DNA from: Octopus vulgaris
Lineage: Eukaryota
Direction: 5' to 3'
Assembly: GCA_951406725.2 (NCBI GenBank)
Contig: OX597831.1
Span: 23,374,001 to 23,438,000, forward strand
Length of the DNA stretch: 64,000 nucleotides
Positions 4,141 through 61,275 of this stretch are shown piece by piece (position 1 is the first letter of the stretch; every line of letters begins with the position of its first letter). The notes under the pieces are model-generated. The model had not been told where the DNA came from and ran no database searches. It worked only from the letters and a program-made list of their open reading frames with translations. The position numbers and the translations under genes were made by a program.

Positions 4141-4182
<42 letters not shown>

Positions 4183-4184
<2 letters not shown>

Positions 4185-4378
4185 ATCCAAACAAGAAAGC
4201 ACAAAAAAACACAACAACGCGAGGACTTGGAACAAATATAGTATTATTGGACGCTCAGGAAAGAAGGAAAGAAGGAGGGTTTAATGTTTCGAGCGGAGCT
4301 CTTCGTCAGAAACATAGGAGAAGGAAAGATCCAGAGAAGGGAAGACAGAGGAAAAAAAATCAACAACGGTACACACGA
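4183..4378 (-). mobile_element. Short repeat family P (Penelope pLTR-like) carrying a hammerhead-like motif
   Basis: Homologous to 11345-11550, 61120-61275 and, more weakly, 12730-12900. It is flanked by TA runs. Confidence 0.65.
4278..4316 (-). ncRNA. Minimal type-I hammerhead ribozyme-like motif
   Basis: Minus strand reads guuu CUGACGA a gagc ucc gcuc GAAA cauu aaac: intact core, 4-bp stem II, helix I guuu/aaac, imperfect helix III palindrome. Confidence 0.55.
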
Positions 4379-11344: not shown

Positions 11345-11550
11345 TGTTACTCCAAACATGAACAAAGAGAAAACACAATGCAAGGATGTGGAACAAGTAT
11401 AGAGTTATTGGACGCTCAGGAAAGGAAAGAAAGAAGGAGGTTTTAACATTTCAAGCAGAGCTCTTCATCAGAAACATAGAAAAAGAAAAGGTCCAAGGAA
11501 GGGAAGACAGAGAAAGAAAATCGCCAACGATACACACGTGGTCACATATT
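11345..11550 (-). mobile_element. Family P copy with hammerhead-like motif at ~11438-11478
   Basis: Minus strand guuu CUGAUGA a gagc ucu gcuu GAAA uguu aaaac; homologous to 4183-4378. Confidence 0.65.
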
Positions 11551-12700: not shown

Positions 12701-12922
12701 CACACATGTATATAGATACATATATAATGACACACATGGTTTTCTGGGACTATTCTTTTCCTTCTCTCTTGACCTTTCCGCTTTCCCCTTTTCGATGAAG
12801 AGCCCATGCTCGAAATATCACAGCCTCTCTTTTTGTCATCTTGAACTGAGAATCAGTCCAATACATTCACTTATTTTTGTTTTTATTTTTGCATTTTTGA
12901 GGGATTTGTTTATATTTATATA

Positions 12923-43502: not shown

Positions 43503-43593
43503 GGTTTGTGTGCCTGTGTTTGTCCCCCCAACATCACTTGACAACTGATACTGGTGTGTTTATGTCCCCATAACTTAGTGGTTTGGCAAAAGA
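43232..43593 (+). mobile_element. SINE family A, 3'-truncated
   Basis: Homology; abuts an inverted copy. Confidence 0.9.
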
Positions 43594-43881
43594 GGCCCCA
43601 GGACTTATTCTTTGTAAGCCTAGTACTTATTCTATCAGTCTCTTTTTGCCAAACCGCTAAGTTACAGGGACATAAACACACCAGCATCAGTTGTCAAGTG
43701 ATGTTGGGAGGACAAACACAGACACACAAACATATACACACACATACATATATATACATATATACGATAGGCTTCTTTCAGTTTCCGTCTACCAAATCCA
43801 CACACAAGGCTTTGGTTGGCCCGAGGCTATAGCAGAAGACACTTGCCCAAGGTGCCACACACACAGCCACTCCTGTGCCTA
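43594..43881 (-). mobile_element. SINE family A, 3'-truncated, tail-to-tail with the previous copy
   Basis: Homology to other family A copies. Confidence 0.9.
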
Positions 43882-44829: not shown

Positions 44830-45276
44830 GATATATATATATATATATACATATATACATACATACATACATATATGTGTGTGCGTGTGTGTGTGCACAT
44901 ATGCATACATATACTGTATGAATACATTTTGTATATATATAAGTGTGTGTATGTATGTATGTGTGTGTGTATGTATATATATATACACATGTATATAGAT
45001 AGATAGATAGATAGACATATAGGTATACATGTACATATATGTGTACATATACTGTATGAATACATTTTGTATGTATATAAGTGTGTGCATGTATGTGTAT
45101 ATATATATATATATATACATACATACATACATTTTTACGTTCTCTCTCCATTTTTTCCCTCTCATCCCTTTCTGTTGAAGAGCGTAGGTTCAATACATCA
45201 ACAACTTTTCCCTTATTCCCAACCATCATACTTATTGTTCCCTCACCTGTTTTTGGCTTTTGTCTTCTGTAAATTT

Positions 45277-57788: not shown

Positions 57789-58295
57789 ATTCTGTTGTGT
57801 CTGGAGAGAGTCATTTTCTTTTTGTGCCTTATTATGTAACACACTCACTGGTAAAATTTCCTCTTTTTTTCTTATTTTTATTTTCCTAAAATTTTCGTTG
57901 TGTCTCACAACCTTTTTAATAGTTTCGACTCTCAGAACTATTGAAAAGGTTGCAAGACGCAACGAAAATTTTAGGACAATAAAAATAAGAAATAAGTGGA
58001 AATTTTACCGGTGAGTGTGTTACATTATAAGACACAAAAAGAAAATGACTCTCCCCAGACACAACAGAATATGCTTCAACACACAAACTCATATAAAGAA
58101 TCTTGCAAACCAAATCCAAAAACGAAATTAATTAATTGATAATTAAGATAGAATTGATCAAATTGTACAGCGTCCTGTTTAAATAGAGTACGGGTGAAAT
58201 TTGGTGAGACACAATAAAGGACAACAAAAAGGAATGACAACTTGGGTAAAACACGACCCCCACCAACACTAAGTACATTGATGTCTCTGTACATT
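57789..58295. mobile_element. Foldback element: ~280-bp palindrome (57789-58070) plus an asymmetric extension
   Basis: attctgttgtgtctgg..aaccttttt aatagtt / aactatt gaaaaggtt..ccagacacaacagaat; a partial arm copy lies at ~51155-51220. Confidence 0.8.
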
Positions 58296-60725: not shown

Positions 60726-61088
60726 TGTGGCCAATGCCTGCGCCGCCTTGACTGGCTTCTGTGCCGGTGGCGCGTAAAAAGCACCATCTGAACGTGGCCG
60801 ATGCCAGCACCGCCTTGACTGGCTTCTATGCCAGTGGCATGTAAAAAGCACCAACCGATCGTGGCTGTTTGCCAGCCTCGTCTGGTACCTGTGCAGGTGG
60901 TACGCAAAAAGCACCCACTACTCTCACGGAGTGGTTGGCGTTAGGAAGGGCAACCAGCTGTAGAAACATTGCCAGATCAGACTGGAGCCTGGTGCAGCCT
61001 CCTGGCTTTCCAGACCCCGGTCGAACCGTCCAACCCGTGCTAGCACGGAAAACGGACATTAAACGATGATGATGATGATGATGATGAT
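60726..61088 (+). mobile_element. RTE 3' UTR with internal repeats and a (GAT)n tail
   Basis: Same family as 30319 and 44199. Confidence 0.85.
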
Positions 61089-61119
61089 TCATATATTTCT
61101 ACCTGCATAGAGTAAAATA

Positions 61120-61275
61120 ACTTTGTTCTCTCTCTCTCCTGAAGAAGTGTGTCTGCTTGAAATGTTAAACCATCTTTCTTTCCTTCCCTGAGTGTCTGCT
61201 AATACTTTACATGTACCAAGTCCACATACTGTTGTTTTTTTTTTGTGTATGTTTGTTCTTCTTTATGGGATTTAC
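61120..61275 (+). mobile_element. Family P copy with a hammerhead-like motif (61139-61170)
   Basis: CUGAAGA agugugucugcuu GAAA uguuaaac followed by ctttctttccttccctgag, as in the 4183 and 11345 copies. Confidence 0.6.

What the first reader, a model, noticed from the sequence alone, without database searches (positions are those of the whole stretch)
4183..4378. Family P: short non-coding repeat carrying a minimal hammerhead ribozyme core
Seen: copies at 4278-4316(-), 11438-11478(-) and 61139-61170(+), and degenerate ones at 12792-12820(+) and 45172-45200(+). They share CUGANGA-A-GAGC-loop-GCUC-GAAA-(C/U)(A/G)UU-AAAC with a guuu/aaac helix I, and N7 varies (C, U, A) as expected for a hammerhead. 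Established: Penelope-like elements carry minimal type-I hammerheads with a palindromic helix III that cleave as dimers. Inference: a non-autonomous, PLE-derived, ribozyme-bearing family that often inserts in TA tracts. The likely consensus is GAAACGUU.
Basis: partly seen in the sequence, partly recalled or inferred. Interest (0 to 1): 0.7.

Follow-up and report, generated by a model that had tools for sequence, protein, structure and literature searches.

The report
Penelope ends with altered hammerhead cores
The short repeat is the cut-off tail of a known kind of jumping gene (Penelope-like) that carries a known self-cutting RNA motif, but its most numerous lineages spread in thousands of copies after changing core letters predicted to slow cutting, so cutting is likely not what makes them move.

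Summary
The motif is real, but it is not a separate non-autonomous family. The 196-nt repeat at 4183-4378(-) is the terminal repeat (pLTR) of a Penelope-like retrotransposon with RT, a Neptune/Nematis-type zinc linker and GIY-YIG; complete copies carry the hammerhead at both ends about 5.9 kb apart. Minimal hammerheads in Penelope pLTRs are known since 2014. The five window copies belong to five related lineages, and none keeps the ACGU palindrome. The surprise is genome-wide: the subfamily of the 4183 copy has CCGACGA (U4C; 96 of 100 listed of 5,907 hits), so this copy's canonical CUGA is probably CpG decay; a sister subfamily keeps U4 (93 of 100 of 2,656); the largest lineage has CUGUNGA (A6U; 96 of 100 of 15,609) with helix I covariation and free N7. 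Both changes hit the U-turn and are predicted to slow cleavage. Most copies span the cut site. Best reading: fold kept, cleavage weak and not needed. Cleavage is untested. The scan noted similar core changes on other DNA before.

The parts
4178..4378 (-). 5'-short copy of the terminal repeat (pLTR) of a Neptune/Nematis-type Penelope-like element, subfamily B (C4 subfamily), between two TA tracts
   Evidence: 94-95% identical to the 3' ends of ORF-bearing copies; flank diagnostic of subfamily B
4279..4313 (-). Minimal type I hammerhead motif: helix I 4 bp, CUGACGA, extra A, helix II 4 bp with 3-nt loop, GAAA, ACAU in place of ACGU, U17; U4 (4308) and A16.2 (4285) are probably post-insertion CpG changes from C4 and G16.2
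   Evidence: sequence; (C at position 4 in 60-67% and G at 16.2 in 92-99% of contig depth in 4 runs)
11345..11546 (-). Decayed copy of subfamily A (U4 subfamily) of the same element; core at 11471-11449
   Evidence: 86-87% to subfamily A copies L032, L116, L133
61137..61277 (+). Decayed end of an older related lineage (GUCU loop; C4 in 19 of 24 listed intact motifs), truncated just 5' of the core
   Evidence: (counted by eye)
12732..12884 (+). Decayed end of a related lineage (CAU/CUU/AAU loops); has C at position 4 and has lost C3
45136..45284 (+). Decayed end of the GUAG-loop lineage, whose usual core is CUGUNGA (A6U); core at 45172-45183
   Evidence: (71% to L154, L231)

Best explanation
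The repeat is the 5'-short terminal repeat of a Penelope-like retrotransposon, likely pasted into TA tracts by the element's own endonuclease and reverse transcriptase from an RNA that was likely still uncut at its hammerhead, whose core has changed lineage-wide (U4C, A6U) in ways predicted to slow self-cleavage. Shown: the element's layout (partial tandem: pLTR with hammerhead, 5' region, RT-linker-GIY-YIG frame, long CA-rich stretch, pLTR with hammerhead); a fixed 3' end about 100 nt downstream of the predicted cut, where the tandem junction reads TTATATA; most copies reach 30-96 nt upstream of C3 and so span the cut site; the core states of the lineages. Inferred: the protein nicks (TA)n, reverse transcription starts inside the RNA at the junction, as shown in vitro for an anole PLE, and mostly stops within about 85 nt upstream of C3 (RNA 5' end or TA microhomology, not told apart). 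Inferred: selection keeps the hammerhead fold and G5, G8, G12 while the U-turn letters 4 and 6 are relaxed, because fast cleavage is not needed for copying; any cleavage would need a second copy (ACGU palindrome) and probably the protein. Identity as a PLE end about 0.95; the whole mechanism 0.55.
For: Link to coding element: RT-thumb sequence 2 kb upstream of a copy, 816 open codons with DKG, YIDD, CX4CxxC linker and cysteines inside GIY-YIG in L092 (Pfam RVT_1 E 0.0016 and GIY-YIG E 0.0077, both under their cut-offs; homologues carry the same two families). 16 of 20 ORF-selected loci have the motif downstream within the stretch fetched, 14 of 16 with C4; 6 of 20 have a repeat on both sides or upstream of the ORF (L092-95, L097, L099). 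U4C is a subfamily state, not decay: 96 of 100 listed C4 with one flank (5,907 hits), 93 of 100 U4 with the other (2,656 hits). Subfamily B is less diverged from its consensus (mean 5.4%, n = 26) than A (8.5%, n = 21), and the youngest clade (100/98), which holds L092, is all C4. A6U: 96 of 100 listed of 15,609 hits; in 20 copies found by the flank alone position 6 is U 18, C 2, A 0, N7 is A5 C4 G5 U6, and G5, G8, A9, A13, A15.1, U16.1 are invariant; motif identity 0.88-0.91 against 0.82 in the flank. Helix I G-C to C-G change in 6 of 21 aligned motifs. Copies that begin at the predicted cut are rare: 23 of 46 pattern hits, against more than 8,500 copies. Literature: all mutants of the CUGA turn but the C3:G8 swap had low activity (PMC9901934, passages); U4C lowers activity in vitro and A6C gives kobs under 0.1 per min (PMC3088659, passages and section 8); in the anole PLE, catalytic mutants did not affect insertion, uncut RNA was the main substrate and cleavage needed the protein (PMC11167929, parts 1-2 of 4).
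Against: No cleavage assay and no raw RNA reads. A religated circle would also give copies that span the cut site. Copies starting at the cut outnumber a control site 23 to 3, mostly with subfamily B flanks, which may be a trace of real cleavage (or TA microhomology; the two patterns also differ in strictness). U4C still supports viroid infectivity in vivo (PMC3088659), and C/U variation at this position is reported in viral hammerhead candidates (PMC13481778, passages). Direction U4 to C4 is not shown by trees: FastTree nests C4 inside U4, IQ-TREE with an outgroup roots among C4 copies. The 5' ceiling is weaker in incidental copies (6 of 19 at -76 to -83, 12 shorter, 1 longer) and in the GUAG lineage. 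Covariation rests on one pair and perhaps one or two events. L092's frame has no start codon before the RT, so no copy is shown to be intact.
Confidence: 0.55

Rival explanations
1. The variant hammerheads do cleave in vivo, as protein-assisted dimers between the two pLTRs; the unit RNA is ligated into a circle, and reverse transcription from the TA junction runs through the restored site, giving both short copies and partial tandems.
For: Fold, ACGU palindrome, H17 = A, C or U and catalytic guanines are kept across lineages; 23 against 3 copies begin at the cut; the circle model is proposed in PMC4209133; U4C is viable in a viroid.
Against: The two motifs are about 5.9 kb apart; the double-hammerhead fold is far above the predicted best dimer (-7.3 against -22.1 kcal/mol for L092, core contacts not modelled); U-turn mutants have low activity; no ends at the cut in anole RNA data.
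Confidence: 0.25
2. The ribozyme is a dead relic in the C4 and U6 lineages and is decaying neutrally at master level.
For: Two of the letters called invariant have changed; helix I is only 4 bp; the young subfamilies have had little time to change other letters.
Against: After A6U the lineage diversified at N7, H17 and in the flanks but not elsewhere in the motif; position 4 differs in at least two lineage pairs (A/B; GUU loop U4 in 14 of 14, GUCU loop C4 in 19 of 24 listed) while other core letters stay. The searches fixed most core letters, so only the flank-selected set (n = 20) tests this.
Confidence: 0.1
3. One reading: an independent non-autonomous family (SINE- or retrozyme-like) of about 205 nt with its own master copies, mobilised by a PLE.
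For: 29 of 30 position-ordered copies are short, 16 with 5' ends 73-84 nt upstream of C3; all 26 copies of a U4 set end within 109 nt.
Against: Short and ORF-bearing copies share the same subfamily marks and up to 95% identity; 5' ends vary from +64 to beyond -1500; no tandem arrays were seen in the loci fetched; solo truncated ends are the described norm for PLE hammerheads.
Confidence: 0.07
4. The conserved structure is a bulged hairpin (UUUC pairing with GAAA stacked on helix II), a protein-binding signal, in which positions 4-7 lie in the bulge; the hammerhead is only its origin.
For: This pairing appears in predicted folds and would free positions 4, 6 and 7; 91.5% of cells paired.
Against: No covariation (0 cells) against 6 cells for hammerhead helix I; it does not explain the kept ACGU palindrome, H17 or G5, G8, A9.
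Confidence: 0.03

Closest known systems
Minimal type I hammerheads (min-HHR) in pLTRs of metazoan Penelope-like elements (Cervera and de la Pena 2014, PMC4209133; read parts 1-2 of 4, supplement file 2 parts 1-2 of 3; file 1 not readable)
   Same: Extra nucleotide after A9, G10.1-C11.1, palindromic ACGU with no helix III, 4-bp helix I, place in both pLTRs, many solo truncated copies; includes a Neptune example.
   Different: Their consensus is CUGANGAH and the core variant described is U3-A8; a search of file 2 for CCGA found 2 places, neither in a core. Here U4C and A6U are the majority states of the two largest lineages. Their descriptor fixed the core, so it could not have found these.
Neptune and Nematis clades of EN+ PLEs (Craig et al. 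2021, PMC8557442 and its preprint; passages)
   Same: C-terminal GIY-YIG, CX2-5CxxC linker, cysteines inside GIY-YIG, DKG, partial tandems, inverted truncated copies, (TA)n bias.
   Different: Long CA-rich stretch (about 2.5 kb in L092) between the frame and the hammerhead; Neptune or Nematis not decided by a tree.
PAc Poseidon element of the green anole (Frangieh et al. 2024, PMC11167929; parts 1-2 of 4)
   Same: Reverse transcription starts inside the RNA, downstream of the hammerhead; AT-rich target; copies contain the uncut site.
   Different: There the motif overlaps the start codon and the start site is not homologous to the target; here the motif lies about 900 nt before the open frame, and the fixed end reads TTATATA like the target.
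Natural hammerhead core variants (Perreault et al. 2011, PMC3088659, passages and section 8; PMC13481778, passages)
   Same: U4C known from a viroid, C/U at position 4 among viral candidates, A6C from a phage.
   Different: Those are rare single variants; here they are fixed in retrotransposon lineages of thousands of copies, and A6U was not found in my searches. Lunse et al. 2017 on PLE hammerhead variants and Ambros and Flores 1998 were not held (seen only in reference lists); the first may already report such variants.
Animal non-LTR retrozymes (PMC7229834, passages; bioRxiv 10.64898/2026.07.22.740005, part 1 of 5)
   Same: Short non-coding hammerhead-bearing sequences related to PLE pLTRs.
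   Different: Retrozymes are tandem arrays with canonical type I motifs; these copies are dispersed and are the end of a coding element.

Membership tests
PLE minimal type I hammerhead | Core CUGANGA | tested here: not met
   Met in the window copy and in subfamily A (93 of 100); not met in subfamily B (C4, 96 of 100) nor the GUAG lineage (U6, 96 of 100). A is filed as a member, B and GUAG as core variants.
PLE minimal type I hammerhead | Extra nucleotide between 9 and 10.1; G10.1-C11.1; helix II | tested here: met
   (helix II 98.8% of cells paired; no compensatory change)
PLE minimal type I hammerhead | GAAA, palindromic 15.1-16.1, NUH site | tested here: met
   ACGU in 6,465 of 6,862 hits; H17 = U, A or C by lineage. 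Not met in any of the five window copies.
PLE minimal type I hammerhead | Short helix I | tested here: met
   4 bp, 85.7% paired, one pair G-C 7 / C-G 6 of 21
PLE minimal type I hammerhead | Lies in both pLTRs of a PLE | tested here: met
   L092, L093, L094, L097, L099
PLE minimal type I hammerhead | Self-cleavage as a dimer | not testable with these tools
   only contigs available
EN+ PLE, Neptune/Nematis type | RT followed by C-terminal GIY-YIG in one frame | tested here: met
EN+ PLE, Neptune/Nematis type | CX2-5CxxC linker, CCHH cysteines inside GIY-YIG, DKG | tested here: met
   motif scan of L092; features as in PMC8557442
EN+ PLE, Neptune/Nematis type | Partial tandem forming pLTRs; (TA)n insertion bias | tested here: met
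   same tandem junction in 5 of 6 long copies examined, TA at 28 of 30 3' ends
EN+ PLE, Neptune/Nematis type | Placement in Neptune by RT phylogeny | not tested
Non-LTR retrozyme | Tandem non-coding units, each with a hammerhead, independent of an ORF | tested here: not met
   dispersed copies identical to the end of a coding element; arrays were not searched for genome-wide

The most novel reading that the evidence does not exclude
In this radiation of Penelope-like elements the hammerhead has become a protein-dependent or non-cutting RNA device: selection keeps its fold, palindrome and catalytic guanines, while the U-turn letters U4 and A6, needed by every free hammerhead, were changed repeatedly in master copies, and the lineages with changed cores became the most numerous. 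The element's protein would replace the U-turn contacts, or the fold would serve as the signal that sets where reverse transcription starts.
Probability: 0.3. Interest if true: 0.7.

Novelty: new variant of a known kind. Interest (0 to 1): 0.42.

Why it matters
What the hammerhead does for Penelope-like elements is stated to be unclear (PMC8557442). This genome offers natural pairs of subfamilies that differ by one core letter and have thousands of copies each, so cleavage rate can be set directly against amplification. It also shows that descriptor searches with a fixed CUGANGA miss the majority of these motifs here (about 5,900 + 15,600 exact hits against about 2,700 for subfamily A), and that a canonical-looking single copy can be a CpG reversion. 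The element itself and its kind of ribozyme are ordinary.

Tried and rejected
Rfam scan: no hammerhead among the 150 of 378 matches shown. No PLE frame in the window itself (tblastn empty). First sample of 30 best DNA matches was biased towards the window copy's private changes and was not used for counts. Simple CpG decay as the only source of U4: rejected, U4 is 1,738 of 6,862 hits while all other variants at the two free places total 397. Trees on flanks did not fix the direction of change. Bulged-hairpin fold: no covariation. No RNA holder listed on record; contigs of four runs guessed to be RNA cover the pLTR and parts of the frame but cannot show ends, strand or level. Look-up of earlier notes by sequence found nothing. 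Lunse et al. 2017 and Ambros and Flores 1998 not held. PMC12602865 has no hammerhead or pLTR text. The idea of a sharp transcription-start wall at -82 is only partly kept. A matched TA-microhomology control for the cut-site junctions was not run.

Full report
Observation. The copy at 4183-4378(-) holds a complete minimal type I hammerhead outline at 4313-4279, except ACAU where the family has ACGU. The loose core pattern is barely above chance in the window, stricter patterns are far above it. The window lies in a 2.8-Gb genome of 227 contigs; earlier notes of the scan call it octopus-like, which I did not test. A 35-letter pattern of the motif has 6,862 exact hits, backwards control 0.

What it is. 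Copies share a fixed 3' end and differ at the 5' end. One copy runs 2 kb upstream into RT-thumb sequence. [quoted passage not shown] Pfam gives RVT_1 and GIY-YIG below their cut-offs, and 1,406 homologues carry the same families. Of 20 such loci extended to 9.9 kb, 16 have the motif downstream and six have a repeat upstream; in L092 the two motifs are 5,890 nt apart. Five long copies show the same junction from the end of one unit (TTATATA) into the start of the next. The window copy is 94-95% identical to the 3' ends of ORF-bearing copies. It is therefore the pLTR of an EN+ Penelope-like element of Neptune/Nematis type (features from PMC8557442, passages), and the short copies are its 5'-short ends. 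That such ends carry minimal hammerheads, mostly as solo copies, is described in PMC4209133.

The core is not canonical in most copies. Exact counts: C at position 4 in 4,727, U in 1,738, all other variants at the two free places 397. A flank 5' of the core splits two subfamilies: A, 2,656 hits, 93 U4 and 7 C4 among the 100 listed; B, 5,907 hits, 96 C4, 3 U4, 1 A4 among the 100 listed (both counted by eye, both from the start of contig 1). The 4183 copy has B flanks, so its U4 is probably a CpG change after insertion, like its ACAU. Contigs of four runs from four coded organisms show C4 in 60-67% of depth, against 0-8% change at four other CpG letters. B is less diverged than A (5.4% against 8.5%), and the youngest clade is all C4, which suggests U4 to C4; the trees disagree on the root, so the direction is inferred, not shown.

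Related lineages. A looser pattern (860 hits) showed a radiation with the same end. GUU-loop motifs have U4 in 14 of 14 listed, GUCU-loop motifs C4 in 19 of 24 (by eye). The GUAG-loop lineage is the largest seen: 15,609 hits, U at position 6 in 96 of the 100 listed, linked to a frame about 60% identical to that of L092. Because these patterns fix most core letters, I also collected copies by the downstream flank alone (79 rows; of 23 GUAG rows 3 were dropped: one at a locus edge, one already targeted, one truncated). In the 20 left, position 6 is U 18, C 2; N7 takes all four letters; G5, G8, A9, A13, A15.1 and U16.1 are invariant; pairwise identity is 0.88-0.91 in the motif and 0.82 in the flank. 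In 21 aligned motifs helix I shows one G-C/C-G pair change (6 cells), a rival hairpin none. The window copies at 61139, 12792 and 45172 are decayed members of these lineages.

How it most likely works. The 3' end lies 108-135 nt downstream of C3 (29 of 30 measurable) with a TA tract after it in 28 of 30; 29 of 30 copies begin 30-96 nt upstream of C3, 16 of them at 73-84 (a U4 set of 26 is similar; 19 incidental copies are more spread). So copies usually contain the uncut site. Copies that begin at the predicted cut number 23 of 46 pattern hits (14 of 30 checked in full, the rest judged from the matched text), against 3 at a control site: rare overall, a small excess that cleavage or TA microhomology could explain. 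In the anole element, reverse transcription starts internally, uncut RNA is the main substrate, ribozyme mutants do not stop insertion and cleavage needs the protein (PMC11167929). U4 and A6 belong to the CUGA turn, whose mutants had low activity apart from the C3:G8 swap (PMC9901934; PMC3088659). I infer that the protein nicks (TA)n, copies from the junction through an uncut hammerhead, usually stops early, and that the fold is kept although fast cleavage is not needed. An active, protein-assisted ribozyme with a circular template is the main rival and cannot be excluded from DNA.

Comparison and novelty. It works like, and descends from, the minimal hammerheads of PLEs; subfamily A meets all features testable here, B and the GUAG lineage fail the CUGANGA feature and are filed as variants. 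U4C is known from a viroid and appears among viral candidates. Five searches found no report of U4C or A6U in PLE motifs or of this family's motif, but the one paper devoted to PLE hammerhead variants (Lunse et al. 2017) and one supplementary file of PMC4209133 could not be read and may bear on this. Earlier notes of the scan record family-wide core changes in other Penelope elements, here and in another genome; I had reached the U4C and A6U results before reading them and did not check them.

Verdict. Real; a new variant of a known kind; interest 0.42.

Noticed in passing
window 57789-58070: Long inverted repeat, 106-nt arms 84% complementary, AT-rich; looks like a miniature inverted-repeat element.
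   Followed up: partly
window 43523-43712: Near-perfect hairpin of about 190 nt, matched far below the gathering score by a microRNA model; possibly two inverted copies of a short repeat.
   Followed up: no
window 61001-61090 and at least 8 other places: Another dispersed repeat ending in (GAT)n lies just before the 61139 copy and just after the 12792 copy.
   Followed up: no
L012:1230-1700: The 5' region of the element unit is joined directly to the terminal segment (internal deletion of the whole frame), followed by two more end copies within 800 nt; a candidate non-autonomous derivative.
   Followed up: no
L204:8689-9323; L216/L217: Complex inverted pairs of truncated ends, as described for PLE insertions.
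   Followed up: no
L092:1400-3900 (element on the - strand): About 2.5 kb of CA/TACA-rich low-complexity sequence inside the element between the stop codon and the hammerhead; such elements may seed microsatellite-like DNA.
   Followed up: no
L138, L142, L143, L154: A small branch of the GUAG lineage keeps the canonical A6; whether it is basal or a reversal was not resolved.
   Followed up: partly
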